Shown here piece by piece: positions 317 through 12,183 of a stretch of DNA of 12,183 nt (its first letter is position 1; the number at the start of each line of letters is the position of its first letter). Below the pieces are notes generated by a model. That model was given only the letters and a program-made list of their open reading frames with translations. It was not told where the DNA came from and made no database searches. The translations under genes and the position numbers were made by a program. This DNA is from a virus. Its lineage: Duplodnaviria > Heunggongvirae > Uroviricota > Caudoviricetes. The stretch is taken from IMG/VR virus record IMGVR_UViG_2651869691_000007, positions 1 to 12,183 of that record. One strand, given 5' to 3'.

Positions 317-2650
317 TCAGGTTGTCGCAGGGTCGTCACATTTTGGCAGCCAGTCGCCGTAGCTTTCCTCTTTCAGTGTCAGGTTGGTCTGTATCCCCTG
401 TTTGGTATGGCGCTTCTCGTAATTCAGTCCGTATTCCTTCAGCATCACCGGTAGCCCCAGCCCGAACATTTTCAGACTGAGTACATTCCGGTAGCCGTTT
501 GCCTCCATGTAGGCCAGACAGGCGTGATAGAGGTATTTACGGTAATTACGCGGGATGATACTGGCGTTCCCCATATACATGCCGCTGGTCTGCGGCAGGG
601 TTTCCAGATAGCCGATAAAATCAAACGTCGGGTCGGCATCCCGTTTGATGTTCAGCGCCTCGTCTGAGTTCTGCTGGGACTGAAGCAGTGACCGGGCGAG
701 CATCGGGTCGCTGAACTTCTGCATCAGGTGACGCACGATGACCGCCAGCTCGCGGGTGATTTTGTCCTTAAGCTGCGGGTCGCGCTCCTGCGGGGCTATC
801 TGTTCCGGGAAGTGAATAATCACCCGCCGGCGTGACACGCCGCCGCTGCGGTCGGTGAAGCGCATCGGGTTATTGTTCACGGCCAGAATCACCGCCGGGA
901 TATGCGTGGAGTACGCATCCCGGTATTTCGGGTCAACGGACACCGCATCGCCGCCGGTGATGGCCTTGAGTCCGGCACCGTCGCCGCTCCATTTTTCCTG
1001 GTCCGGCAGGCGTATCAGTGAGAAGCCAGTTAACGCGGCACGTTCACGCGGGGATTCCAGCGTCTCAATGGTGGCCGACGTGGCGTTATCCTCCCCGGCC
1101 AGCAGGGTGGCGATTTCGGCCATGATACTTTTGCCGCTGCCGCCGGGACCGGTCACCTCCAGAAAGAGCTGCCAGTCGTAGCGGTTTGCCAGCACCATAA
1201 ACAGTGCGGCCAGAATCACGTCGCGTTTTTCCGCACGGCCACCGGCGGCACGGTCAAGCCAGCGCCAGAACGCGGGGGCGTGGGTCTCCAGCGTTTCACC
1301 GTCCACCGGCGGGGTGAAATCCACATCGCACAGGGTGCGCATCCAGTGTGACGGACTGTGCGGGTGGAACGTGCCGTTCTGCGTGTCGAGCACGCCGTTA
1401 CGAAAGCCAATCAGGCGGCGGGAGGGGGCTTCCTGCTGCGGAATAATCAGCTTCAGGGTGTCCACCACGGAGGCCACCTTCCCGGAGGAGAACGGCGCGC
1501 GCAGACGCTGAAACAGCCCGGCCACATCCCGGGCAAAGTCCTGTGGCGGCAGCACCTTCCAGACACCATTTTCATAGCGGGACAGAAGCTGGCCGTTGGC
1601 ATCGACCGCGAGCGCCTCGCCGTAATGCTCATAGATACGCATGGCCTTTTCGCTGGTACTCATGGCGGAAAACTCCGCTTCGCTCATGGTGTCGAACGGG
1701 CTTTCAGCCGGTGGCCGGATGGCATCATAAATGGCCTTACGGGTGGCCTCCCCGCCGTACTGCGTGAAGGCATCATTCCAGTCACCGAAGACCGGCGGCA
1801 GGGCAACAACACCCTCACACGCATCTGCGGCTGCGGCGGCTTTTGTCTGGCCGTCACCGCTGAGGTCACGGTCTGCGGCAAGGACAATCTGACAGGCCGG
1901 ATACTTCTGCCGGGCAAGGCTGGCCAGAGAAAGGAGGTTCACGGAAGAAAGCGCCACCATCACCGTTTCACCGGTCAGGTGATGCACGGTAAGTGCGGTC
2001 GCGTATCCCTCCGCTATCCACAGACGTTTTCCGGCCTGATTCTGTCCTTCAAAGATGTGACAGGTGCCCCTGACCTGCCCGCCTTTCAGAGTGCGCTTAC
2101 GGCCGTCAGCACTGATTAACTGAAGGTTAACCAGTTCGCCACTGTCGTCATACAGTGGCACCACAAGGTCACCGGCGCGCCAGCTCACGCCACCGGCTCT
2201 GTGTGTGCCGGTCAGCATCCGGCATTCCCGGTCGGGAAAGCCCTTGCGGGTCAGGTAGGCGTTACCGGTTCCGGGACGGGTTTTTGCCATCAGGGTTTGT
2301 GCCAGTGCGGCGGCGTTCTTCCGGGCAGCGTCTGTTTCAGCGCCGGCGGCGGCCGTCACTGCCGGGTCAGCCGGGGGCAGGCTGCCGGTCACGGCAGCCA
2401 CCTTTGCGGCCGCGTCGGACGGGGAGACACCAAACACCTTTTCAACCAGTTTCAGGCCGTCACCGGCACCACACTGATTGCAGTACCAGGTGCCGCGCCC
2501 CTCCCTGTCATCAAAACGGAAGCGGTCACTCCCGCCACAGACCGGACAGGGCTGATGACGGTTTTTCAGCACCTGAATCCCCAGCGCCGGGAGAATACGC
2601 GGCCAGTGGCCGAGCGCATGGCTGACGGTGGCGGTTACGTTCATTTTCAT
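317..2650 (-). CDS. alpha: P4 alpha-type DNA primase-helicase (777 aa)
   Basis: 777-aa ORF; N-terminal Cys4 zinc ribbon (CPVCGG...YCNQCG), TOPRIM-like segment (WIAEGYATAL...LAADRDLSGDG), Walker A GPGGSGKS. Length and N-terminus match recalled P4 alpha. The C-terminal domain would bind the TGTTCACC iterons seen at ori and crr. Confidence 0.9.
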   Translation of the reverse strand: MKMNVTATVSHALGHWPRILPALGIQVLKNRHQPCPVCGGSDRFRFDDREGRGTWYCNQCGAGDGLKLVEKVFGVSPSDAAAKVAAVTGSLPPADPAVTAAAGAETDAARKNAAALAQTLMAKTRPGTGNAYLTRKGFPDRECRMLTGTHRAGGVSWRAGDLVVPLYDDSGELVNLQLISADGRKRTLKGGQVRGTCHIFEGQNQAGKRLWIAEGYATALTVHHLTGETVMVALSSVNLLSLASLARQKYPACQIVLAADRDLSGDGQTKAAAAADACEGVVALPPVFGDWNDAFTQYGGEATRKAIYDAIRPPAESPFDTMSEAEFSAMSTSEKAMRIYEHYGEALAVDANGQLLSRYENGVWKVLPPQDFARDVAGLFQRLRAPFSSGKVASVVDTLKLIIPQQEAPSRRLIGFRNGVLDTQNGTFHPHSPSHWMRTLCDVDFTPPVDGETLETHAPAFWRWLDRAAGGRAEKRDVILAALFMVLANRYDWQLFLEVTGPGGSGKSIMAEIATLLAGEDNATSATIETLESPRERAALTGFSLIRLPDQEKWSGDGAGLKAITGGDAVSVDPKYRDAYSTHIPAVILAVNNNPMRFTDRSGGVSRRRVIIHFPEQIAPQERDPQLKDKITRELAVIVRHLMQKFSDPMLARSLLQSQQNSDEALNIKRDADPTFDFIGYLETLPQTSGMYMGNASIIPRNYRKYLYHACLAYMEANGYRNVLSLKMFGLGLPVMLKEYGLNYEKRHTKQGIQTNLTLKEESYGDWLPKCDDPATT

Positions 2651-2664
2651 GGTGTTGTTCTCCT

Positions 2665-2985
2665 TCAGTGCAGTACCGGCGCTTTTATGTGACGGGCACA
2701 GAGTTCATCCATCACAACCAGCCCGAGAAAGGACAGCGACGGCGCGGCCTTCAGGGGGCCGGATTCCATTAAATCTTCCAGCAGGGCACAGGCTATCTGA
2801 CGCCCTTTTTCCTCACCGTGCTGGCGCAGATAAAAGCCTTCCAGCTCAGCGGCGATGGCCGCCTCCAGTGACTCAAGGGTGAGATGCGGGTAGCGGTGCT
2901 GACGTTCGCACACGGTCAGCCAGGCACAGGCGACAGCGCGACGGTAAAGGGCAGCGCGTAAGACGGGCGGTAAGGGTGTTTTCAT
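2665..2985 (-). CDS. P4 orf106-like protein (106 aa), function unknown
   Basis: 106-aa ORF immediately upstream of alpha in the same operon; AGGGAG Shine-Dalgarno upstream of the ATG; position and length match P4 orf106. Confidence 0.7.
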
Positions 2986-3047
2986 TTGCTTTTCTCCCTG
3001 TGACAGATGACTGCATTCCGTGCCGGTTGCATTAACTGATAAGGCAT
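2982..3047 (-). CDS. Candidate 21-codon leader ORF ([21 protein letters not shown]) translationally coupled to orf106
   Basis: ATG at 3047 preceded by AGGAG (3056-3060) with 8-nt spacing; stop TGA overlaps the orf106 ATG as ATGA (2982-2985). Below the ORF-track length cutoff; no homology evidence. Confidence 0.25.
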
Positions 3048-3120
3048 ATCTGCGTCTCCTGAAGACGTGCGTATCCCTGCGCGAATACGCACATTTAATT
3101 TTTCGGGGGTCGTTTTTTAA

Positions 3121-3576
3121 TTACAGATAATTGCGGTAACTGTTATCCGGGGTGGTTTCCGGGTCAGGCTCCGTGCGGGGAATTTCCCGCCATTCCCGCG
3201 CCACCGGTGCCGCCCGGCTGACCGGAACAGGGGCCTGCGGGTAAATATCCAGATATTTCTCCCGCCATTTCTGTAATTCCGGGTCTCCGGCCATTTCTTT
3301 CAGTACCGCATGCCTGTTTACGGGGCTGCGTTTAAACAGGTCAGGACGGTCACAGGTAAATTCCCGCAGAAAACGCCCCAGCGGGATGTCTGTGGTGCGC
3401 CCGTCAGCGAGGATACGCACAAGGATACTGAATTTACGGCGGTACGGGTTCCAGACAATGTCCGGGCAGCGGTACGGCATTTCCCACGGAATACCGTCTT
3501 CCAGAATGCCGACCACGGCCACATCGGGAAAACCGGCAGAACGGTAAATCTCACCGGGCTGGGGAAAATCAAACAT
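3121..3576 (-). CDS. P4 orf151-like protein (151 aa), function unknown
   Basis: 151-aa ORF between epsilon and orf106; size and position match P4 orf151. Confidence 0.7.
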   Translation of the reverse strand: MFDFPQPGEIYRSAGFPDVAVVGILEDGIPWEMPYRCPDIVWNPYRRKFSILVRILADGRTTDIPLGRFLREFTCDRPDLFKRSPVNRHAVLKEMAGDPELQKWREKYLDIYPQAPVPVSRAAPVAREWREIPRTEPDPETTPDNSYRNYL

Positions 3577-3856
3577 GCGTCCTGTCTCCCCGGTCTTTCT
3601 GCTGGGCGAGAAAATCGCGGCACAGGCCTTTGGCTTTCAGCTCATTCAGCACAAAATCAATATCTTCATTCAGGTAGCTGAAAATATGCGGAATGTAGAG
3701 CTGATGCAGGCCGGAGAGTTCACGGTGAATCAAATCACCCCCAACAAACCGGGATACGGCGCTGGCGCGGTTGAGCTTATGGTAAGCCTCAATGCTGAGG
3801 TGTTCACGGGCGTCATGACGCGCTGAGACGGTCTGAGGGGCTTTTTTATTACGCAC
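3569..3856 (-). CDS. epsilon: P4 epsilon-like protein (95 aa; derepressor of helper prophage in P4)
   Basis: Tail of the 177-aa track ORF. Proposed start is GTG at 3856 with GGAGG 6 nt upstream, giving 95 aa ([15 protein letters not shown]...). The GTG overlaps the last codons of kil; the stop overlaps the orf151 start by 8 nt. Confidence 0.65.
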
Positions 3857-4046
3857 GGGACACCTCCACCACCGGCAGACGGGCAGCAAGGGAGAGCACA
3901 TAGTCACGGACAAGGGAACGGCGGGCGCTGCGTTCATCACCGGCGACGGTGCGAAGCATACAGATACGGGGATGACGGTCTGCGCGACGGACAGCCGCAA
4001 ACACAAAGACAAATTCAGGGTGTGAGGGGGTAAGGGTTGTAGCCAT
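3849..4046 (-). CDS. kil: kil-like 65-codon ORF, first translated gene after PLE
   Basis: ATG at 4046 preceded by strong SD AAGGAGG (4055-4060); 65 aa ([12 protein letters not shown]...VVEVSRA); forms the in-frame C-terminal part of the longer eta ORF, as described for P4 kil/eta. Confidence 0.6.
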
Positions 4047-4448
4047 GATGGCAGCCTCCTTGAAGTAACAGTTACAGCTACCACTAGAGTTCCTACGCTC
4101 ATGGGTGGTAGCCCGGACGGGGGTAGGAATACCGGCCTTCAAGGAAACCGGCCAGCCCGAAGGCTGCCCCGCCCGGACCACCATTATCTGACAGAGGCTA
4201 CGGTTTAAAAACCACAGCCAGAAAAACAGGTGTGCCGAAGCAACGACGTAAAAAAAGACGCATGGCGCGTCATATGTCGCCTTGAAGTAACTCGGGTTCC
4301 TACGCCCGGCTGCCGATTTTGCGGCAGCGGAAAAACTATATCCGCAAATGCCGGAAAAAGGCAAGCCAGAAAAAGGGAGTTTTTGCAGAGCGGGCATCAT
4401 CATGCGTCGTACCCCCGTTTGCGTCCGGCAATGCGTCCGGCCATCCAT
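3849..4448 (-). CDS. eta: eta-like long ORF (199 aa) starting upstream of PLE and containing kil in frame
   Basis: 199-aa ORF whose ATG (4448) lies upstream of the predicted PLE (4335-4364) and which spans the cI region. Matches the nested eta/kil arrangement reported for P4; translation is expected only from PLL transcripts. Confidence 0.4.
4104..4172 (-). ncRNA. cI: cI immunity RNA region (contains seqB)
   Basis: Minus-strand transcript 4172->4104 (69 nt) is closed by GGUGGU/ACCACC, has an internal CAGCC-UUCG-GGCUG tetraloop hairpin, and carries seqB (4123-4144) complementary to seqA (4280-4305) and seqC (4058-4098). Processed ends cannot be set from sequence. Confidence 0.45.
4250..4271 (-). 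terminator. Hairpin plus U7 in the PLE leader (candidate attenuator/terminator between seqA and cI)
   Basis: Minus-strand RNA: GACGC-GCCAU-GCGUC (4257-4271) followed by U7 (4250-4256). The stem is short (5 bp), so efficiency is uncertain. Confidence 0.35.
4335..4364 (-). promoter_or_regulatory. Candidate sigma70 promoter PLE (-35 TTGCCT, 18-bp spacer, -10 TATAGT)
   Basis: On the minus strand: TTGCCT (4359-4364), 18-bp spacer, TATAGT (4335-4340); sits inside eta, just downstream of the vis stop and upstream of seqA, as expected for P4 PLE. Confidence 0.4.
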
Positions 4449-4666
4449 GCGGTGACTTCAGAGTGCAGCCAGGCCACATTTTTACCGCCAAGACTCACCT
4501 GCGGCGGAAATTCCCCCTTACGGATGAGTTCGTAGATGGTCGAGCGTGACAGGCCGCACAGGTGCATCACTTCCGGAAGACGTAAAAAACGCTCCTGTGT
4601 GATGTCCGGCAGCGGCATCAGTGGCGTCACAGGGGCGGGAGAAGGGGAAGAAAAAACAGCTTGCAT
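4400..4666 (-). CDS. vis: Vis/AlpA-family small DNA-binding regulator (88 aa)
   Basis: 88-aa ORF with AlpA-type HTH ([46 protein letters not shown]); GAGG SD 7 nt upstream; first gene downstream of the PLL dyad; matches P4 vis (orf88) in size and position. Confidence 0.75.
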
Positions 4667-4768
4667 CGGGCTACCTCGTTAATGTCCATACAGCACCGGA
4701 TAAGTCCGTCCGGCTTCGGGTAGCGCTTTATTTTGTGAATATTTTCAGCAGACGCAACAGGGGGGATT

Positions 4769-4786
4769 TGTTCCGGCAGCCTTACA
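4769..4786 (-). promoter_or_regulatory. TGT-N12-ACA dyad: candidate Delta/Ogr activator site of late promoter PLL
   Basis: Exact TGT(4769-4771)-N12-ACA(4784-4786); sits roughly 100 bp upstream of the vis ATG (4666), consistent with a -55-centred activator site for a minus-strand promoter. The -10 element is weak, as is typical for activator-dependent P2/P4 late promoters. Confidence 0.45.
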
Positions 4787-4811
4787 ATGCTTGTGTATTT
4801 TTTGTTCATCT

Positions 4812-4841
4812 CCACTTAAAGTCATTTAAAGCCACTTAAAG
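4812..4841. repeat. Three tandem 10-bp repeats (CCACTTAAAG / TCATTTAAAG / CCACTTAAAG)
   Basis: Seen directly; the 10-bp period puts the sites on one helix face; located between the PLL dyad and the ori iterons. Confidence 0.5.
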
Positions 4842-4945
4842 CAATTCGTAATTTTTATAGTGAAATACAAATCGTTTTTTCTTATTCATTCCCGGCGAAT
4901 TAATAAAAACAAACAGTAATAAACAGCACAAAAAGCCCATCAACG

Positions 4946-5050
4946 GGTGAACAGTGGTGAACAGACGGTGAACAGCCATTACTGCAATTGTTCACCCTTT
5001 AACTTACTGTATTACCTATCTTTTTTCTTATGGTGAACAGAGGTGAACAG
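4946..5050. repeat. ori: ori-like iteron cluster: six type-I iterons (five direct GGTGAACAG, one inverted TGTTCACC)
   Basis: GGTGAACAG at 4946-4954, 4956-4964, 4967-4975, 5032-5040, 5042-5050; inverted TGTTCACC at 4989-4996. Flanked by AT-rich DNA and a 15-bp direct repeat AAAAACAAACAGTAA (4905-4919 and 5061-5075). P4 ori is reported to hold six type-I iterons. Confidence 0.6.
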
Positions 5051-5128
5051 TAAAATATAAAAAAACAAACAGTAAGCCGGTTTTTCCTGCGACCTTTTCC
5101 TGGCTTGCCGGTCTGAGGATGAGTCTCC

Positions 5129-5146
5129 TGTGTCAGGGCTGGCACA
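5129..5146 (+). promoter_or_regulatory. TGT-N12-ACA dyad: candidate Delta/Ogr activator site of late promoter Psid
   Basis: Exact TGT(5129-5131)-N12-ACA(5144-5146), centred ~82 bp upstream of the sid ATG (5219), consistent with a -55-centred site and a short leader. Confidence 0.5.
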
Positions 5147-5218
5147 TCTGCAATGCGTCGTGTTGTTGTCCGGTGTACGTCACAATTTTCTCAACCTGAA
5201 GTGACGAGGAGCCGGAAA

Positions 5219-5928
5219 ATGTCTGACAACACCATCCCTGAATATCTGCAACCCGCACTGGCACAACTGGAAAAGGCCAGAGCCGCCCACCTTGAGAACG
5301 CCCGCCTGATGGATGAGACCGTCACGGCCATTGAACGGGCAGAGCAGGAAAAAAATGCGCTGACGACTGGCGCACGGCCTTTCGTGCAGCCAGTGGTGTC
5401 CTGAGCGACGAGCTGAAACAGCGCCACATTGAGCGCGTGGCACGCCGGGAGCTGGTACAGGAATATGACAATCTGGCCGTGGTGCTGAATTTTGAACGCG
5501 AACGCCTGAAAGGGGCGTGTGACAGCACGGCCACCGCCTACCGGAAGGCACATCATCACCTTCTGAGTCTGTATGCAGAGCATGAGCTGGAACACGCCCT
5601 GAATGAAACCTGTGAGGCGCTTGTCCGGGCAATGCATCTGAGCATTCTGGTACAGAAAAATCCGCTCGCCAACACCACCGGGCATCAGGGCTACGTCGCA
5701 CCCGATAAAGTTGTCATGCAGCAGGTGAAATCATCACTGGAACAGAAAATAAAACAGATGCAAATCAGCCTCACCGGCGAGCCGGTTCTCCGGCTGACCG
5801 GACTGTCAGCGGCAACGCTCCCGCACATGGATTATGAGGTGGCAGGCACACCGGCACAGCGCAAGGTGTGGCAGGACAAAATAGACCAGCAGGGAGCAGA
5901 GCTTAAGGCCAGAGGACTGCTGTCATGA
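5219..5928 (+). pseudogene. sid: sid (external capsid size-determination scaffold) interrupted by a frameshift
   Basis: ATG at 5219 (GAGGAG upstream; MSDNTIPEYLQPALAQ...) runs in frame 2 to TGA at 5402-5404. The continuation (…AFRAASGVLSDELKQRHIERVARRELVQEY… to 5928) is open in frame 1 from 5335. The two frames overlap only in 5335-5401, which contains an A7 run (5349-5355). A sequencing error is possible. Confidence 0.6.
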
Positions 5929-6425
5929 TTTACTGCCCGTCGTGTGGACATGTTGCTCACACCCGTCGCGCACATTTCATGGACGATGGCACCAAGATAA
6001 TGATTGCACAGTGCCGGAATATTTATTGCTCTGCGACATTTGAAGCGAGTGAAAGCTTTTTCTCTGACTGTAAAGATTCAGGAATGGAATACATTTCAGG
6101 CAAACAGAGATACCGCGATTCACTGACTTCTGCCTCCGGCAGTATGAAACGCCCGAAAAGAATGCTTGTTACCGGATATTGTTGTCGGAGATGTAAAGGC
6201 CTTGCACTGTCAAGAACATCGCGGCGTCTGTCTCAGGAAGTCACTGAACGTTTTTATGTGTGCACGGATCCGGGCTGTGGTCTGGTGTTTAAAACGCTTC
6301 AGACCATCAACCGCTTCATTGTCCGCCCGGTCACGCCGGACGAACTGGCAGAAAGCCTGCATGAAAAACAGGAACTGCCGCCAGTACGGTTAAAAACACA
6401 ATCATATTCGCTGCGTCTGGAATGA
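5925..6425 (+). CDS. delta: Delta late-gene transcriptional activator (duplicated Ogr-type zinc finger, 166 aa)
   Basis: 166 aa with two Ogr-like Cys4 modules (MIYCPSCGHVAHTRRAHFMDDGTK...CRNIYCSATF and CCRRCKGLALSRTSRR...CTDPGCGLVF); ATGA overlap with the sid stop. Confidence 0.85.
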   Translation: MIYCPSCGHVAHTRRAHFMDDGTKIMIAQCRNIYCSATFEASESFFSDCKDSGMEYISGKQRYRDSLTSASGSMKRPKRMLVTGYCCRRCKGLALSRTSRRLSQEVTERFYVCTDPGCGLVFKTLQTINRFIVRPVTPDELAESLHEKQELPPVRLKTQSYSLRLE

Positions 6426-6498: not shown

Positions 6499-7071
6499 AT
6501 GGAAAGCACAGCCTTACAGCAGGCCTTTGACACGTGTCAGAATAACAAAGCAGCATGGCTGCAACGCAAAAATGAGCTGGCTGCGGCCGAACAGGAATAT
6601 CTGCGGCTTCTGTCAGGAGAAGGCAGAAACGTCAGTCGCCTTGACGAATTACGCAATATTATCGAAGTCAGAAAATGGCAGGTGAATCAGGCCGCCGGTC
6701 GTTATATTCGTTCGCATGAAGCCGTTCAGCACATCAGCATCCGCGACCGGCTGAATGATTTTATGCAGCAGCACGGCACAGCACTGGCGGCGGCACTGGC
6801 ACCGGAGCTGATGGGCTACAGTGAGCTGACGGCCATTGCCCGAAACTGTGCCATACAGCGTGCCACAGATGCCCTGCGTGAAGCCCTCCTGTCCTGGCTT
6901 GCGAAGGGTGAAAAAATTAATTATTCCGCACAGGATAGCGACATTTTAACGACCATCGGATTCAGGCCTGACGCGGCTTCGGTGGATGACAGCCGTGAAA
7001 AATTCACCCCTGCGCAGAACATGATTTTTTCGCGTAAAAGTGCGCAACTGGCATCACGTCAGTCTGTGTAA
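6499..7071 (+). CDS. psu: Psu polarity-suppression / capsid decoration protein (190 aa)
   Basis: 190-aa ORF following delta; N-terminus MESTALQQAFDTCQNNKAAW and length match recalled P4 Psu. Confidence 0.85.
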   Translation: MESTALQQAFDTCQNNKAAWLQRKNELAAAEQEYLRLLSGEGRNVSRLDELRNIIEVRKWQVNQAAGRYIRSHEAVQHISIRDRLNDFMQQHGTALAAALAPELMGYSELTAIARNCAIQRATDALREALLSWLAKGEKINYSAQDSDILTTIGFRPDAASVDDSREKFTPAQNMIFSRKSAQLASRQSV

Positions 7072-7235
7072 AATTCCCCGAAAATCCGCCTGTTTTTACT
7101 GAAAAAAGCCATGTATCGATAAGGTGCATGGCTTTGCATGCGTTTCCCTGCCTCATTTTCTGCAGACCGCGCCATTCCCGGCGCGGTCTGAGCGTGTCAG
7201 TGCAACTGCATTAAAACCGCCCCGCAAAGCGGGCG

Positions 7236-7254
7236 GGCGAGGCGGGGAGAGCAT
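7236..7254. other. cos: cos-like site (GGCGAGGCGGGGAGAGCAT)
   Basis: Differs at 2 of 19 positions from the P2/P4 19-nt cohesive end as recalled (GGCGAGGCGGGGAAAGCAC); preceded by GC-rich hairpin CCGCCCCGC-AAA-GCGGGCGG (7217-7236); lies right after psu, where P4 cos is expected. Confidence 0.55.
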
Positions 7255-7272
7255 TGCGCGCAGGTAAAAAAA

Positions 7273-7962
7273 TCATTTATTTTGTAATGCCGCATCAAAT
7301 CTGGTCTTGAGATCTTGGAATGGGATAACGAGTTTATCGATATAATCTTTATTATTATTTTGTAGAATTGCTTCAACAAAATCATTTAGAGGTGCATAGT
7401 TTTCTAATACTTTAGAATCGATAAAATCTTTATAGGACATACATTCAGCACCAATGCTAAGGCTTTCACCTATATACTTTTGTTCAAGAGATCTAATACA
7501 AGGAAAACCAATATCGTTCTCTCGTAGGGCTATAGAAATATTTTTGATTAATTCAGTTATTAACATTTCATCATTAGTTGGTGAAAATACAGATGAATCT
7601 CTATTTTTCCTGAATTGATGTACCCAGCAAAAATATTGGCATAGATAGAATCTTGTACTATCAATATAATATTGATCCGACGATAGGTCATTGTGATCTT
7701 TAATATAACATAGCCTTCCTAAAAAACCATTTGCAGCACTAAGTAATGTTAACCCCCAACGTCCGATTTCAAGATCTCTTGCTTTTTTAAAATTATAAGC
7801 ACGTTCATCCTCTTTAATTCTCTGTTCACTTTCATATTTCAACTTATTTTTAAATGATTCTAACTCTCTTTTATCAATATGTTGTAAAAAAGCCTTACAA
7901 ACAAATCCAATAATTGCAAATGAAATGCTTGATGACAAAATACCTTCCCAAAAGCTACTCAT
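7273..7962 (-). CDS. Small membrane-anchored partner protein (229 aa) of the RT-nitrilase gene
   Basis: N-terminal hydrophobic helix (ILSSSISFAIIGFVCKAFL); ATG overlaps the upstream gene stop as ATGA (7959-7962) with GAGG SD; ~30% GC; no motif I can recognise in the soluble part. Confidence 0.75.
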   Translation of the reverse strand: MSSFWEGILSSSISFAIIGFVCKAFLQHIDKRELESFKNKLKYESEQRIKEDERAYNFKKARDLEIGRWGLTLLSAANGFLGRLCYIKDHNDLSSDQYYIDSTRFYLCQYFCWVHQFRKNRDSSVFSPTNDEMLITELIKNISIALRENDIGFPCIRSLEQKYIGESLSIGAECMSYKDFIDSKVLENYAPLNDFVEAILQNNNKDYIDKLVIPFQDLKTRFDAALQNK

Positions 7963-10835
7963 TTCTCACCTCGCTCTAATAGAGCATTATAGTCAAACCC
8001 TGGAGGATTGTGTTTAATAGTATCGGAGTTAATTCTGAATGAACGATATTGAGCCTCTCTCAATGCATATATATTTAAAGTAGTAGTTAGGATGCAATGG
8101 TTTTCCCCACCTTTTACATATATCTTATTTGAAATAGTGCTACTGGTCGGTTGTAGAACACAAGAACCGCCATAATGCGAAGTATTTGATTGAGCCACAT
8201 AACAATGTAAATCCCGTGTCGCTGACTCAGTGATATGTTGATAATAATTTATATCTTGATTCCATACGCAAGCAAATAAAATATCCAACTGCGAACGAAA
8301 TAATGCTCTATGCTCGATATTAGCCAGTTCAAAACAGTTGTATGTAGAAAATGATACGTTTTTCCACTTAATCAAATGATACCGTTGTTTACTAGGTTTA
8401 GGAGAGGATATTTTTAACCTTAAAGAATTCAGCATCGTAATCTCACTAGGTGCGTAATGATTTTTCACTCGAAAAACTAACATACTGGATTTGTGTTTAA
8501 AGTTTGAAGTATAAGGCAGCATTTCAACCAAAATATTATATGCGCGTTCGTTAATAACCCAATGCTCTAATCCGAAAATCAAAGATATTTGTTTTCTCCT
8601 TGAATGTGCTGCCATAAAAGGTAACCACGACACAGGAATTGATAACTCAGGGAGTAGTAATATCTGCACATTTTCTTCAGTTGCCGAGTTGAGAATACGA
8701 TAAAGGTTTCTTTGTCGTTCATAACTTAAATTTGGAGACTGATCTTTTCTGCAAGCACTTTCAATATTACGACGTTCAACTCTCATATTTGCCAACGCAA
8801 CTTTTATTGTGTCATTACCACTTCTATCATCAATTCCTACCTTTATTTCAAGAGCTTTATTATCTTTTATCTTAGTAACAGAGCAATTTTTTAAGTGATG
8901 CTTATTTTCATGCGTAAACTTATGTAGTTTTCTTGTATGAAGAGCATCAATCAAATCGAAAAGCTGCTTTTCATCAGCATGAATATATCTAGGGGTTTTA
9001 TTTAATTTATCATTATCAAGTGGAATACCATGCATCTTACTGTATAAATTCTCCTCAGTAAGATCTCCTTTATATTTAGTATAGTTAGCTAAAGGCCAAG
9101 ACACTAGATTATGACGAATCAAATTACTGCTTCTAAATCTTTCAATTAGAACAGACATTCCATCGGACTGTTTAATTAAAGATTTCAAACCTTCCAAAGC
9201 TCTATTTTGTGGCTCTTTATCACCTAAAATGACATTTAAATCTAACAAAGCCAAATTCAAACAAAGAGAAATATCAATGTATTTCTGCATTCCATTTTTA
9301 AGTTTTGGAGATATAACACTATCACCTTCCTTCCACTTCATTTTATTAATTGATTCTTTAATTTGTTTGTAAAAGGCGATTGAAAATCCATATTTTCTTG
9401 TAATTAATGTATACGATAGAACTTTCTCCCATAACCGACTGAACCTTAGAGAATTTTCACCTTTAAAAAACAGCGTTATTTGCTTTAAGGTATTCTCATT
9501 CGATGGAAGATTGCAAAGCCTATGAGCTAAGATATGTGATGATATATATTTTGATAATTCAGTTTCATTCTCTGCCAAACCTACAATACTTCTAAATTTA
9601 TTTGCCGAACCATCAAGTAATATATCATAAGCAAATTTATCGAGATCGCTAGATATATGTTCTTCCGGTAAAAAACGAAATGCACTGCTTCTGTTCTCAA
9701 TTTCTTGTTTGAAGACTTGTAAACCAGCCAAACTATGATCTTTATTGAAATAATGAAAAATCAATTTATCCTTTTGAATTGGTAATTCATGATAACTCTC
9801 GGTCAACGTAAAGCCTTTCTCATCATTCGCTGCCTGTTTGATGAATCCATTAAGGGTTCGCTCTATGAATTTTATTACTTCTTCACCTTTATCTTCTTTT
9901 TTAATGTCCGGAGATGAAAAAACTAAAAGAATATCATCCACATAGCGACCGTAGTACGATGGATTAATTTTTGATTTAATATCTTTATCAAAACCCATTA
10001 AATACCAATTAGATAATATGGCAGAAGAAGTAAATCCAATTGGAATGCCTTTTGATGAAGGAGTTGAATGTGTCACACCAATATATGGAGATATTTTCTC
10101 TCTGTATTTTTGATGCATCAACCTCAATTTACTATTCAACAACATAGAAAGAGCTTTAATTTCTTCTAATTGTTCTTCGTCAATAATTCTATCAATGGCA
10201 TCAAAATCTATATCTATATTATAATAAAAACCCTTAAGATCCAGAGAAAGAATTGCAACATCATTTCGCTCTTTTTCTATAACTTCTATCGCTTTATCGA
10301 TACCACCATCTCGCCATTTATTATAATTATCAATGTATCTTTCAAAGATATTTTTTGAGGAGTTTTTTGGCGCATCGAAACTATTCTTAGAATATTTTTT
10401 TATTACTTTTGATATTCTATTTCCATAAACCGAATCAGAAAACTTGTCATCTAGCATTGAACCAACAAAGATAGACCAGAGTGTTTCTATTAAATATATT
10501 TCAATAGGAGCAACGATCAAATAATTTACAGCACCTACTTTGTATTCATCTGATGTCTTATTATTACTTAAAAAAAGAGCTCCGCTCGTTTGCTCAATAT
10601 CCAAATGGCTATCAATTTTTTTTGGTAATAATTCAACATCAATTTTATTTAGCCACTCATTAAAGTTAATGTCATTATTATTTTCAAAAAAATCAACCAC
10701 TTTTTCTATTTTTTCGTCATAGAGAGAATCTTCAAATTGAGCGATTTCTTCCTTTAGGAAAAAATTTAAGTTTTCGTAGTAAGCATATGACTTAAGACAA
10801 TTATATGCACTAACAACTATATCTTTTGTAATCAT
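7959..10835 (-). CDS. Reverse transcriptase fused to C-terminal nitrilase (carbon-nitrogen hydrolase) domain, 958 aa; candidate defence-associated RT
   Basis: RT motifs: LSLDLKGFYYNIDIDF (aa 196-211), PIGFTSSAILSNWYL (aa 265-279), YGRYVDDILLVF with YVDD encoded at 9933-9944. CN-hydrolase signature: IKVALANMRV, LLLPE (Glu730, 8646-8648), FRVKNHY (Lys), YNCFE (Cys834 at 8334-8336, Glu836). N-terminal ~185 aa and the aa 310-670 region are unassigned. Confidence 0.85.
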   Translation of the reverse strand: MITKDIVVSAYNCLKSYAYYENLNFFLKEEIAQFEDSLYDEKIEKVVDFFENNNDINFNEWLNKIDVELLPKKIDSHLDIEQTSGALFLSNNKTSDEYKVGAVNYLIVAPIEIYLIETLWSIFVGSMLDDKFSDSVYGNRISKVIKKYSKNSFDAPKNSSKNIFERYIDNYNKWRDGGIDKAIEVIEKERNDVAILSLDLKGFYYNIDIDFDAIDRIIDEEQLEEIKALSMLLNSKLRLMHQKYREKISPYIGVTHSTPSSKGIPIGFTSSAILSNWYLMGFDKDIKSKINPSYYGRYVDDILLVFSSPDIKKEDKGEEVIKFIERTLNGFIKQAANDEKGFTLTESYHELPIQKDKLIFHYFNKDHSLAGLQVFKQEIENRSSAFRFLPEEHISSDLDKFAYDILLDGSANKFRSIVGLAENETELSKYISSHILAHRLCNLPSNENTLKQITLFFKGENSLRFSRLWEKVLSYTLITRKYGFSIAFYKQIKESINKMKWKEGDSVISPKLKNGMQKYIDISLCLNLALLDLNVILGDKEPQNRALEGLKSLIKQSDGMSVLIERFRSSNLIRHNLVSWPLANYTKYKGDLTEENLYSKMHGIPLDNDKLNKTPRYIHADEKQLFDLIDALHTRKLHKFTHENKHHLKNCSVTKIKDNKALEIKVGIDDRSGNDTIKVALANMRVERRNIESACRKDQSPNLSYERQRNLYRILNSATEENVQILLLPELSIPVSWLPFMAAHSRRKQISLIFGLEHWVINERAYNILVEMLPYTSNFKHKSSMLVFRVKNHYAPSEITMLNSLRLKISSPKPSKQRYHLIKWKNVSFSTYNCFELANIEHRALFRSQLDILFACVWNQDINYYQHITESATRDLHCYVAQSNTSHYGGSCVLQPTSSTISNKIYVKGGENHCILTTTLNIYALREAQYRSFRINSDTIKHNPPGFDYNALLERGEK

Positions 10836-10926
10836 AACGCATCATTCCGTGTATAAGTCTGTTATAGATGAAAGTAAAACTGAAATTGATTAATACCTAA
10901 CAAAAACATACAGAAAAAATCAATTA

Positions 10927-12183
10927 TTAATATTTTTTTGCAAAATCAAATGGTGTTACGAAAGTCTCACGATTTGCTGATAGGAAATCCGCCCACCATT
11001 GCATCATCAATCGACGTTCGTCCAAATGCTCTGAAGTATGGATATAAGCTGCACGAACATTATTGCGCTCCGAGTGGCTTAACTGACGTTCTATCGCATC
11101 ATCACTCCAAAGCCCCGACTCCCCCAAAGCACCACGCGCCATTGTTCTAAAACCATGCCCACATACTTCCGTTTGTGTGTCGTAGCCCATAGTCCTGAGC
11201 GCATTATTAACTGTGTTTTCGCTCATAACTTTATTGGGATCATGATCACCGGGAAACAGTCTAGGATTATCTCCACTAAGCTTCTTCAACTCATCCAGCA
11301 AAGCTAGAGCCTGAGTGCTCAATGGAACAATATGTTCCTCTTTCATCTTCATCCCACGATAGGAGTAACGCACACCTTCGATTTCTTCACGCCGCGCCGG
11401 TATCCGCCAGCAGGCGTTATCAAAATCAAACTCATCCCATCGGGCAAATCGCATCTCACTAGAGCGAACGAAGGTAAGTAGAGATAACTCGACTGCAATA
11501 CGCGTCATTTTGCGGCCACGATATGCCGCAAGGCGTGCCAGAAACTCAGGGAAACGGCTGGAAGGTAGAGCTGGATAGTGTCGTGCTTTAGTTGTCGATA
11601 ACGCACCAGCCATATCGCTAGCCGGGTTCGAGTCGATATAATCGTTCTGTACGGCATACCGCATAATGGCCGTGACGCGCTGTTGCAGGCGCTGAGCGAC
11701 GTCGTGTTTACCACTGACATCAACTTTTTTAATCGGGGCTAATAGGTGGCTAGTTTTGAGCTGGCGAATGTCGGACGAACCGATATGAGGGAAGATATAA
11801 AGCTCAAGATAGCGAAGAACACGCGATCGATGGTCTTCACTCCAGCGCTTGTTACTGGCATGCCATTCGCGAGCAATGGTTTCGAAGGTATATGCCCCCG
11901 AATTCTCGGCCTGAGCTTCTTTCTGTTCGGCTTTTGGGTCAATGCCCTGCACTAACAGCTTTTTAGCTTCGTCGCGCTTTGCTCTTGCCTGAGCAAGCGT
12001 CACTGTAGGCCAAACACCAAAAGCGAGGCGATCCTCTTTTTTGTCAGAGGGGCGTCGGTATTTCATGCGCCAGTATTTAGAACCCTTGGCCGAAACCTCG
12101 AGATACAAACCGCCGCCATCGGCCATTTTGTATGTTTTGTCTTTTGGCTTTGCGGTCTCGACCTGTCTGGCGTTGAGCTTCAT
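10927..12183 (-). CDS. int: P4-family tyrosine integrase (418 aa), start codon at window edge
   Basis: N-terminus MKLNARQVETAKPKDKTYKMADGGGLYLEVSAKGSKYWRMKYR typical of P4/CP4-57-type integrases; catalytic-domain boxes TFVRSSEMR, HGFRTMARG, VRAAYIHTSE. ATG occupies 12181-12183, so upstream extension cannot be excluded. Confidence 0.9.
   Translation of the reverse strand: MKLNARQVETAKPKDKTYKMADGGGLYLEVSAKGSKYWRMKYRRPSDKKEDRLAFGVWPTVTLAQARAKRDEAKKLLVQGIDPKAEQKEAQAENSGAYTFETIAREWHASNKRWSEDHRSRVLRYLELYIFPHIGSSDIRQLKTSHLLAPIKKVDVSGKHDVAQRLQQRVTAIMRYAVQNDYIDSNPASDMAGALSTTKARHYPALPSSRFPEFLARLAAYRGRKMTRIAVELSLLTFVRSSEMRFARWDEFDFDNACWRIPARREEIEGVRYSYRGMKMKEEHIVPLSTQALALLDELKKLSGDNPRLFPGDHDPNKVMSENTVNNALRTMGYDTQTEVCGHGFRTMARGALGESGLWSDDAIERQLSHSERNNVRAAYIHTSEHLDERRLMMQWWADFLSANRETFVTPFDFAKKY

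What the first reader, a model, noticed from the sequence alone, without database searches (positions are those of the whole stretch)
7273..7962. Membrane-anchored partner protein with no recognisable domain
The 229-aa partner has a single predicted N-terminal TM helix and a soluble remainder rich in charged and aromatic residues with no motif I can name. In RT-based defence systems, small membrane proteins are plausible effectors or regulators of abortive infection. Its stop lies 18 bp from the cos-like site, so its 3' end and terminator overlap the packaging region.
Basis: inference. Interest (0 to 1): 0.6.

Follow-up and report, generated by a model that had tools for sequence, protein, structure and literature searches.

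The report
Known membrane partner of RT-nitrilase defence
This 229-residue membrane-anchored protein is the second gene of a published anti-phage system (a reverse transcriptase fused to a nitrilase, plus one membrane protein) carried by a P4-like phage satellite; the gene is real but already known, and only its molecular role is still open.

Summary
Window 7273-7962 (minus strand) is a 229-aa ORF with one N-terminal transmembrane helix (about residues 5-22) and a 200-residue all-helical cytoplasmic part with no Pfam, NCBIfam or PHROG match. Its start overlaps the stop of the upstream RT-nitrilase gene (ATGA). Its stop lies 18 bp from a P4-type cos 19-mer.

It is not new. The protein is 100% identical to "Protein 2" of plasmid pFR76, the "RT-nitrilase + 1TM" system of E. 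coli E101. Rousset et al. 2022 cloned that system from the psu-int hotspot of a P4-like satellite and showed it to be anti-phage. PADLOC models it as RTasTM (E = 5e-164), next to RT_UG5-nitrilase.

What I add:
- The close family is rare. It is always glued to a UG5-large RT-nitrilase and diverges in step with it.
- Most UG5-large RTs have no such partner and no compensating domain difference.
- Remote relatives with the same 1TM + helical-bundle layout sit in a UG6 operon, next to a Lamassu-like LmuB ATPase, and in an RT-free three-gene operon.

This fits a portable, accessory membrane module, most likely a second effector. No experiment has yet separated effector from regulator. Novelty: already known. 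Interest is low.

The parts
7273..7962 (-). 229-aa single-pass membrane protein (RTasTM), second gene of the RT-nitrilase + 1TM defence cassette; stop codon 7273-7275
   Evidence: ORF. PADLOC RTasTM PDLC03013 E=5.2e-164 and PDLC03799 E=1.2e-122, both full length. 100% identical to pFR76 Protein 2.
7897..7950 (-). Transmembrane helix, residues about 5-22 (WEGILSSSISFAIIGFVC), with conserved small or polar residues S10-S12, A16, G19, C22 and an invariant K23 at its cytoplasmic end
   Evidence: Hydropathy maximum 1.94. Conservation. An N-terminal hydrophobic segment is present in nearly all full-length family members. Phobius '1 TM' reported in Rousset Table S2A.
7768..7896 (-). Juxtamembrane motif (H28-x-D30-K31-R32) and highly charged helical stalk, residues 23-65; the stalk is longer by tens of residues in remote homologues
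   Evidence: AlphaFold2 predicts one continuous helix over residues 31-89. Invariant residues. Lengths of remote homologues.
7276..7767 (-). Conserved cytoplasmic helical-bundle domain, residues 66-229, with motifs E-x-G-R-W-x-x-T-L-L-S, Q-Y-F/L-C-W and R-S-L-E-Q-x-Y-I-G; R83 and T103 are invariant across the whole family
7959..7972 (-). Gene junction: GAGGTG Shine-Dalgarno (7967-7972) inside the end of the RT gene, and ATGA start/stop overlap (7959-7962), implying translational coupling
   Evidence: Sequence read. The same abutting or overlapping arrangement occurs in homologous loci.
7959..10835 (-). 958-aa UG5-large reverse transcriptase fused to a C-terminal nitrilase (YVDD at residues 298-301; nitrilase E730, K791, C834)
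   Evidence: PADLOC RT_UG5-nitrilase E=0 and RTasNitrilase E=2.7e-34 over residues 674-948. Pfam RVT_1. Invariant catalytic-type residues. The first 399 residues shown in Rousset Table S2A are identical.
10836..10958 (-). Upstream region that Rousset et al. cloned with the cassette as its native promoter region (their forward primer begins at 10958, inside the end of int)
   Evidence: Primer mapping; 'native promoter' statement. My consensus scan found no promoter-like site in 10836-10926.
7236..7254 (+). P4-type cos 19-mer; the backbone/cargo boundary follows at about 7262/7263
   Evidence: Two mismatches to the P4 19-mer. Alignment with four P4-like satellites from Rousset Table S2A.
7217..7236 (-). 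G+C-rich hairpin followed by TTTT on the minus strand; the only terminator-like site downstream of the cassette, and part of the conserved satellite backbone
   Evidence: Terminator scan. The same sequence is present in P4 itself and in the PARIS-2 satellite.
6499..7071 (+). psu, left flank of the P4 defence hotspot
   Evidence: Pfam Psu E=1.3e-88.
10927..12183 (-). P4-type tyrosine integrase, right flank of the hotspot
   Evidence: Pfam Arm-DNA-bind_3, Phage_int_M and Phage_integrase. tRNA-Leu lies next to it in a complete genome.

Best explanation
IDENTITY (shown, about 0.97). The ORF is the membrane component (PADLOC 'RTasTM'; TM cluster 1858 of Mestre et al. 2022) of the published 'RT-nitrilase + 1TM' anti-phage system. 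This is a UG5-large, class 3 UG/Abi reverse transcriptase system. It sits as low-GC cargo (30% against 49-61% for the backbone) in the psu/cos-int hotspot of a P4-like satellite integrated next to tRNA-Leu. MECHANISM (inferred, about 0.45). The protein is a single-pass N-out/C-in inner-membrane protein, made in step with the RT-nitrilase through translational coupling. Its conserved cytoplasmic helical bundle docks on, or reads a product of, the RT-nitrilase. In the related class 3 enzymes DRT1 and DRT5S/L, the RT makes template-free, protein-primed DNA adducts; in DRT1 these hold the nitrilase in dormant filaments until phage factors release it. On activation, several copies of the partner would associate through the charged stalk and the small-residue face of the TM helix and damage the inner membrane. 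That would add a second abortive-infection hit to the nitrilase. It is an accessory, portable effector module, not the core of the system. The single confidence value (0.5) is for identity and mechanism taken together.
For: Identity:
- Full-length PADLOC RTasTM and RT_UG5-nitrilase matches.
- Exact identity to pFR76 Protein 2; the cloned fragment maps to window 6950-10958.
- The published anti-phage activity of that clone, measured at room temperature, and later placement of it in the UG5 radiation.
- Hotspot flanks psu and int, tRNA-Leu next to int, and the GC contrast.

Functional coupling:
- ATGA overlap with an internal Shine-Dalgarno sequence.
- In all 7 other close-family loci examined (L002, L003, L010-L014) a UG5 RT-nitrilase ends where the TM gene starts. 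Two of these (Pantoea at smpB, Photobacterium) are not typical P4 contexts. A further divergent pair, L022, has the same order.
- RT identity and TM identity to the window co-vary, r=0.86 over 7 loci.

Accessory rather than core:
- Three UG5-large RTs at about 45% identity have no TM neighbour.
- TM-linked and TM-less RTs differ only by indels of 8 residues or fewer, and share the same C-terminus and catalytic residues.
- DRT11 and DRT1 defend without a TM protein.

Portable module:
- A full-length homologue is the first gene of a TM-DnaG-RT_UG6-nitrilase operon.
- Another lies directly upstream of a 569-aa protein and a LmuB-like SMC ATPase.
- Others sit in an RT-free operon with conserved partners of about 210 aa and 318 aa.

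Topology and oligomerisation cues: positive-inside distribution, a conserved S12/A16/G19/K23 stripe at i, i+4, i+7, i+11 spacing, and a 59-residue continuous helix.
Against: - No experiment shows toxicity, membrane damage or even a requirement for this protein. Rousset et al. report only the two-gene clone. Mestre et al. state that the TM protein is 'necessary', but the Rousset text I could read contains no deletion that supports this.
- One TM helix per chain is a weak basis for a pore. The most conserved part is the cytoplasmic domain, which would suit a regulator or adaptor equally well.
- No fold or sequence similarity to known pore formers, SLATT or any solved membrane effector was found.
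- The nitrilase already supplies an effector in sister systems.
- In 3 of 31 E. coli genomes the RT gene is broken by IS elements while the TM gene stays intact. So the TM gene on its own is tolerated, although polar effects may silence it.
Confidence: 0.5

Rival explanations
1. Non-lethal membrane adaptor or regulator. The protein tethers or positions the RT-nitrilase (or its DNA-adducted filaments) at the inner membrane, or senses a membrane-proximal phage cue. It thereby tunes activation threshold, temperature dependence or phage range, while killing is done only by the nitrilase.
For: The strongest conservation is in the cytoplasmic bundle, with conserved polar residues R83, T103, Q109, Q161 and E166, as expected for a binding site. 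There is only one TM helix. The nitrilase catalytic residues are intact here and essential in DRT1 and DRT11. Sister systems work without a TM protein. The TM gene is tolerated when the RT gene is disrupted.
Against: Regulators and sensors are usually tied to one system. This family reappears in UG6, LmuB-like and RT-free operons, which is the pattern of swappable effector modules such as SLATT. Small polar residues are conserved inside the TM helix itself, which suggests the helix does more than anchor.
Confidence: 0.3
2. Antitoxin-like restraint. The membrane protein sequesters the RT-nitrilase and keeps it inactive; infection releases it.
For: Tight translational coupling and co-divergence with the RT would suit a stoichiometric inhibitor. 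For Drt1b, the DRT1 authors raise only the converse, Hailong-like idea, that polymerase-made DNA adducts block a membrane channel.
Against: Most UG5-large RTs with the same architecture exist without it, so the RT-nitrilase does not need an external inhibitor. In DRT1 auto-inhibition is built into the filament. The IS insertions hit the RT gene, not the supposed antitoxin, which does not distinguish the models. Homologues occur with no RT at all.
Confidence: 0.08
3. Unrelated neighbour. The gene is a separate satellite function (for example superinfection exclusion or a packaging-related role, given its position next to cos) and is only by chance adjacent to the RT.
For: It lies 18 bp from cos, and P4 hotspots hold many independent single genes.
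Against: The same RT-TM pair, with abutting or overlapping reading frames, recurs outside P4 contexts, at smpB in Pantoea and in Photobacterium. In 31 of 31 E. coli genomes the gene lies next to the RT gene. Identities co-vary. The conserved cos backbone ends before the gene.
Confidence: 0.03

Closest known systems
'RT-nitrilase + 1TM' system of E. coli E101 (plasmid pFR76; Rousset et al. 2022, Cell Host Microbe, PMC9122126); the model behind PADLOC RTasTM / RT_UG5-nitrilase
   Same: The TM protein is identical residue for residue. The first 399 RT residues printed in the paper's table are identical. It sits in the same hotspot between psu/cos and int of a P4-like satellite, and the published clone corresponds to window 6950-10958.
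   Different: Nothing in the cassette differs. The surrounding satellite in this window carries a 25-bp deletion in sid that at least one other carrier lacks.
Drt1b, the TM protein next to about 18% of DRT type 1 (UG1) RT-nitrilase genes (Gao et al. 2020 as cited; Mestre cluster 85; Neville et al. 2026, PMC13275509)
   Same: A small membrane protein encoded next to a class 3 RT-nitrilase. It is present in only a minority of loci, and its role is unknown.
   Different: The RT here is UG5, not UG1. Drt1a models match only partially, at E=3e-28, against E=0 for UG5. The PADLOC scan of the partner returned only RTasTM models. Direct homology to Drt1b could not be tested because I had no Drt1b sequence.
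DRT11, a UG5-large system of Sinorhizobium meliloti RMO17 (Sanchez-Nieto et al. 2026, PMC13436386)
   Same: The same RT plus fused-nitrilase architecture, an abortive-infection-like phenotype, and activity against podovirus-like phages.
   Different: It has no TM gene and needs none. This shows the TM protein is not a universal requirement of UG5-large systems.
SLATT membrane proteins that accompany AbiA, UG17/DRT10, DRT3, UG23, UG28, RADAR and CBASS
   Same: Small membrane proteins that move between unrelated defence systems, as main or accessory effectors. The RTasTM family likewise appears with UG5-large, UG6, a LmuB-like ATPase and RT-free operons.
   Different: SLATT proteins have 2-3 TM helices and a recognised Pfam domain. 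This protein has one TM helix, a 200-residue cytoplasmic bundle and no Pfam match.
Hailong HalA/HalB (as described by Neville et al. 2026)
   Same: The concept that DNA made by a defence polymerase holds a membrane effector in check. The DRT1 authors raise this as a possibility for Drt1b.
   Different: No sequence or fold similarity to any solved channel was detected. This is an analogy only.

Membership tests
UG5-large RT-nitrilase + TM defence system (class 3 UG/Abi; 'RT-nitrilase + 1TM') | Reverse transcriptase of the UG5 clade with an intact YxDD motif | tested here: met
   PADLOC RT_UG5-nitrilase E=0 over residues 1-958; Pfam RVT_1 E=3.4e-11; YVDD at residues 298-301.
UG5-large RT-nitrilase + TM defence system (class 3 UG/Abi; 'RT-nitrilase + 1TM') | C-terminal C-N hydrolase (nitrilase) domain fused to the RT, with a Glu-Lys-Cys catalytic set | tested here: met
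   PADLOC RTasNitrilase E=2.7e-34 over residues 674-948. E730, K791 and C834 are invariant in 14 aligned UG5-large proteins. Published HHpred gives CN_hydrolase at 99.7% probability.
UG5-large RT-nitrilase + TM defence system (class 3 UG/Abi; 'RT-nitrilase + 1TM') | Small protein with a single TM helix encoded immediately downstream, matching the RTasTM profile | tested here: met
   RTasTM PDLC03013 E=5.2e-164 and PDLC03799 E=1.2e-122, residues 1-229 of 229. One hydrophobic segment. 4-bp gene overlap.
UG5-large RT-nitrilase + TM defence system (class 3 UG/Abi; 'RT-nitrilase + 1TM') | Anti-phage activity of the two-gene cassette | not testable with these tools
   Published for the identical TM protein and cassette, measured at room temperature under the native promoter. 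The separate contribution of the TM gene is not reported in the text I could read.
P4-like satellite psu-int defence hotspot cargo | Located between psu/cos and the integrase of a P4-like element, with foreign base composition | tested here: met
   psu, delta and int by Pfam. cos 19-mer at 7236-7254. Backbone/cargo boundary at about 7262. GC 30-31% against 49-61%. Of 1,083 E. coli genomes that share the flanks, only 31 hold this cargo.
DRT type 1 partner Drt1b | Encoded next to a UG1 (Drt1a) RT-nitrilase | tested here: not met
   The neighbouring RT is UG5. Drt1a models give only partial matches, E=3.4e-28 and 5.3e-14.
DRT type 1 partner Drt1b | Sequence homology to Drt1b (Mestre cluster 85) | tested here: inconclusive
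   PADLOC scans of this protein and 20 remote relatives returned RTasTM and no Drt1b model. I could not confirm that the library holds a Drt1b model, and I had no Drt1b sequence for a profile-profile test.
SLATT pore-forming effectors | Two to three TM helices and a SLATT domain | tested here: not met
   One hydrophobic segment only. No Pfam family at E<=0.1.
Known solved membrane or pore-forming folds (ClyA/Nhe-type toxins, ion channels, Hailong HalA) | Specific structural similarity to the predicted model | tested here: not met

The most novel reading that the evidence does not exclude
The RTasTM fold (one TM helix, a charged stalk of variable length, and a conserved helical bundle with the RW / QYFCW / LQQR-IGE motifs) may be a previously unrecognised, portable membrane effector or sensor module of bacterial immunity. 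It would be comparable in role to SLATT and has been recruited independently by UG5-large, UG6, Lamassu-like (LmuB) and at least one uncharacterised RT-free operon. In the RT systems it would read the protein-linked DNA or the nitrilase product and convert it into membrane damage.
Probability: 0.3. Interest if true: 0.5.

Novelty: already known. Interest (0 to 1): 0.2.

Why it matters
For a genome scan, this is a correct detection of a catalogued defence cassette in a known hotspot, so it needs no discovery claim. The open question is biochemical: what does a single-pass membrane protein add to an RT-nitrilase that works alone in sister systems? The contexts found here (UG6, LmuB-like and RT-free operons) suggest the protein is a reusable module. 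That makes its conserved cytoplasmic residues and its TM stripe concrete targets for mutagenesis on a plasmid (pFR76) that already exists.

Tried and rejected
- Pfam, NCBIfam and PHROG scans of the partner gave nothing significant.
- A profile search of PDB sequences gave only Mdm2 N-terminal domains at E=0.07-0.3. These are one protein counted many times, at chance level, so I rejected them.
- I asked whether TM-linked RT-nitrilases lack a domain or the C-terminal 'lid' that the partner might replace. They do not: indels are 8 residues or fewer and the C-termini are conserved.
- I looked in Rousset et al. for a TM-deletion experiment behind Mestre's word 'necessary' and found none in the main text. 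Mestre's supplementary tables are not held.
- A locus search with the broad alignment A2 failed for lack of a conserved stretch. The narrower alignment A3 found only 5 loci among 185,579 species genomes and 1 in IMG/VR.
- The promoter scan found fewer sites than shuffled sequence (13 against 20.3), so I make no promoter claim.
- The reading that the gene's 3' end overlaps the packaging site was rejected from the backbone alignment.
- A direct comparison with Drt1b could not be made.

Full report
**What is in the window**

The 12.2-kb window is a P4-like satellite. It encodes:
- an alpha-type primase/helicase (317-2650, minus strand);
- a delta (Ogr/Delta zinc finger, 5925-6425) and psu (6499-7071; Pfam Psu E=1.3e-88);
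- a P4-type integrase (10927-12183, minus strand).

In a complete E. coli genome with 99.9% identical DNA, the element sits next to tRNA-Leu. Between psu and int lie a cos-like 19-mer (7236-7254, two mismatches to the P4 sequence) and two overlapping minus-strand genes of 30-31% G+C. The backbone has 49-61% G+C. The two genes are a 958-aa RT-nitrilase (7959-10835) and the 229-aa ORF of the finding (7273-7962).

**Check of the observation**

The ORF exists as described.
- Hydropathy gives a single segment above the usual 1.6 threshold, with a maximum of 1.94 over residues 8-26.
- No K/R precedes the segment and six follow it (K23, K31, R32, K38, K40, K42). This indicates an N-out/C-in signal anchor, not a cleaved signal peptide.
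- The rest is 27.5% charged and 13.1% aromatic.
- Pfam, NCBIfam and PHROGs return nothing significant.
- The gene is under selection. Seventeen homologues at 45-75% identity keep 54 invariant columns. These include S12, C22 and K23 in or at the end of the TM helix, the juxtamembrane H28-x-D30-K31-R32, and three cytoplasmic motifs.
- The start codon overlaps the RT stop (ATGA, 7959-7962), and a GAGGTG Shine-Dalgarno sequence lies at 7967-7972.

One clause needs correcting. I aligned the region with four P4-like satellites whose sequences are printed in Rousset's Table S2A. The shared backbone runs through the 19-mer and about 8 bp beyond it, to roughly 7262, and then diverges into cargo. So the coding region ends 10 bp outside the conserved cos segment. 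The only terminator-like hairpin (7217-7236, minus strand) lies on the other side of the 19-mer. It is backbone sequence that P4 itself also has. Transcripts of the cassette probably read across cos and stop there; that step is an inference.

**What it is**

PADLOC models match both proteins end to end:
- RTasTM for the partner (PDLC03013 E=5.2e-164; PDLC03799 E=1.2e-122);
- RT_UG5-nitrilase for the RT (E=0).

The literature settles the identity. Rousset et al. 2022 (PMC9122126) surveyed the psu-int hotspot of P4-like satellites. They cloned an "RT-nitrilase + 1TM" system from E. coli E101 (plasmid pFR76) under its native promoter and listed it among validated anti-phage systems, with defence measured at room temperature. 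They describe it as a UG5 RT with a C-terminal nitrilase "associated with a transmembrane effector", reminiscent of type I DRT.

Their Table S2A prints the proteins.
- Protein 2 is identical to the window ORF over all 229 residues.
- The 399 printed residues of Protein 1 are identical to the window RT.
- Their primers map to window 10958 and 6950.

Mestre et al. 2022 (PMC9226505) classify this as UG5-large (class 3 UG/Abi). They report a TM protein of cluster 85 or 1858 downstream in 31 of 299 members. The finding is therefore a correct detection of a known, experimentally validated system.

**How common it is**

- In 5,426 complete E. coli genomes the gene occurs in 31. It is always single-copy and chromosomal, at least 99.9% identical, and always next to the RT gene. 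By contrast, 1,083 genomes match the satellite flanks.
- The word-indexed search of 5.8 billion proteins found 29 clusters, the named ones all Enterobacterales, down to 46% identity.
- An exhaustive profile search of 1.84 billion representatives found 49 proteins at E<=1e-3 and 11 at E<=1e-10.
- One-genome-per-species scanning found 5 loci in 185,579 species: Erwinia, Silvania, two Rahnella and Photobacterium.
- IMG/VR holds one contig, with an identical copy.

**Linkage to the RT**

In seven other close-family loci (L002, L003, L010-L014) a UG5 RT-nitrilase ends exactly where the TM gene begins.
- Five of them are in P4-like elements.
- One is at smpB in Pantoea.
- One is in Photobacterium, with no P4 genes.

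A more remote pair, with the TM protein about 30% identical, shows the same order next to a divergent UG5-nitrilase. RT and TM identities to the window co-vary (r=0.86, n=7), and the TM protein diverges faster. This argues for a co-evolving, probably physically interacting pair. It argues against a chance neighbour.

**Accessory, not core**

The RT search shows two groups. One has at least 60% identity and carries the partner. A much larger group of UG5-large proteins has 42-47% identity. Three of the latter, examined in long contigs, have no TM neighbour.

Aligning six partner-linked and eight partner-less RTs shows only indels of 8 residues or fewer. The C-terminus is conserved, as are YVDD and the nitrilase residues E730, K791 and C834. 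So the partner does not replace a missing domain.

The literature agrees.
- DRT11, a UG5-large system without a TM gene, defends Sinorhizobium, and both catalytic domains are needed.
- DRT1 defends without Drt1b.
- In DRT1 the resulting DNA adducts assemble dormant filaments that hold the nitrilase inactive until phage factors act.
- Those authors note that Drt1b accompanies about 18% of drt1 genes. They speculate about a Hailong-like arrangement in which DNA adducts block a membrane channel.

Mestre's statement that the TM protein is "necessary" in the E101 system is not backed by a deletion in the Rousset text available to me. I treat the requirement as untested.

**Structure**

AlphaFold2 with the 17-sequence alignment gives mean pLDDT 84 and pTM 0.73. 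The model is all-helical:
- a TM helix at residues 2-28, with pLDDT 53-68;
- one continuous helix over residues 31-89;
- a compact bundle over residues 97-227, with pLDDT mostly above 90 and one small hairpin.

Across 33 family members at about 20% identity, R83 and T103 are invariant. Y98, Q109, W113, Q161, E166, C174, Y177 and F180 are nearly invariant. An N-terminal hydrophobic helix is present in almost every full-length member. In the close family, S12, A16, G19 and K23 fall at i, i+4, i+7 and i+11, which places them on one face of the TM helix. Such a pattern is typical of helix-helix packing; that reading is an inference.

**New contexts for the family**

- A full-length homologue (P0034; profile E=2.3e-24; RTasTM E=1.4e-32) is the first gene of a four-gene operon with overlapping genes: TM, DnaG-like primase, RT_UG6, nitrilase. 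Mestre's description of UG6 does not mention a TM protein.
- Another (P0036, E=8.8e-19) lies 4 bp upstream of a 569-aa unknown protein, followed by a LmuB-like SMC ATPase and a DUF2779 protein.
- Two more (P0040, P0046) head an RT-free operon with conserved partners of about 210 aa and 318 aa. The 210-aa partners are 34% identical to each other, E=2e-32.
- Others stand alone, one of them between integrase genes.

Each context rests on one or two loci. Taken together, they show the pattern of a module that is swapped between defence systems.

**Most likely mechanism**

Shown:
- the identity of the protein;
- the operon structure and co-inheritance with the RT;
- the single TM helix and the cytoplasmic orientation by charge;
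- the fact that sister systems do without this protein.

Inferred (about 0.45): the cytoplasmic bundle docks on the RT-nitrilase or reads its DNA adduct or reaction product. On activation, copies associate through the stalk and the TM face and damage the membrane. This adds a second abortive-infection hit or widens the phage range.

Rivals:
- Main rival (about 0.3): a non-lethal membrane adaptor or regulator.
- Antitoxin-like restraint (about 0.08) fits poorly, because partner-less RTs have the same architecture.
- An unrelated neighbour (about 0.03) is contradicted by synteny outside P4.

**Verdict**

The gene is real and was correctly interpreted, and it is already known. Interest is low (0.2). 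The residual value lies in the untested role of the membrane protein and in the hint that its family is a portable module.

Noticed in passing
window about 5357/5358 (sid region, 5219-5928): Relative to an otherwise near-identical satellite in E. coli CP062910, the window lacks 25 bp of sid, at an 8-bp direct repeat (CGCTGACG). This shifts the frame and splits Sid into an 83-aa ORF (5153-5404) and a 163-aa ORF (5437-5928). From established P4 biology, this satellite copy would probably be unable to direct small-capsid assembly.
   Followed up: partly
L018 (NZ_OZ546925) 1160-4813 and L019 (NZ_CP065613) 1392-5339; homologous to window 7959-10835: In 3 of 31 E. coli genomes the RT-nitrilase gene is interrupted by an insertion sequence: IS1A in two related isolates and ISEc60 in another. 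The downstream TM gene stays intact and identical. Several truncated RT variants at 100% identity also appear in the protein database (719-814 aa). This suggests recurrent inactivation of the RT-nitrilase.
   Followed up: partly
L005 1393-7217: A metagenomic UG6 operon reads TM (RTasTM family), DnaG-like primase, RT_UG6, nitrilase, with 4-bp overlaps at the first and last gene junctions and a 32-bp overlap between the primase and RT genes. A Schlafen/AlbA_2 gene lies divergently upstream. A TM partner is not part of the published description of UG6.
   Followed up: partly
L023/L024 7001-14067: An RTasTM-family protein (254 aa) sits between sbcCD and a tight array of a 569-aa unknown protein, a LmuB-like SMC ATPase (PADLOC LmuB E=4.6e-24) and a DUF2779 protein. 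A large helicase/nSTAND-type gene follows. This may be a Lamassu-like system with a membrane component.
   Followed up: no
L004 317-2322 and L006 114-2712: An RT-free three-gene operon reads RTasTM-family protein (312-322 aa, with a longer stalk), a conserved protein of about 210 aa (34% identity between the two loci; weak DUF7587 hit, E=0.003), and a protein of about 318 aa. None has a PADLOC match. It could be an undescribed defence candidate.
   Followed up: no
window 7217-7236 and the homologous backbone in P4, PARIS-2 and Klebsiella satellites: The G+C-rich hairpin that abuts the cos 19-mer is conserved in P4-like satellites whatever their cargo. On the minus strand it is followed by a T-run, so it may terminate transcription from whichever defence cassette occupies the hotspot.
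   Followed up: partly
L017 1857-3773: One partner-less UG5-large RT (Neptunomonas) lies inside a type I restriction-modification locus, directly after a SMODS/AGS_C cyclase and a SLATT_6 protein. This is a defence island in which a different membrane effector family sits next to the RT.
   Followed up: no
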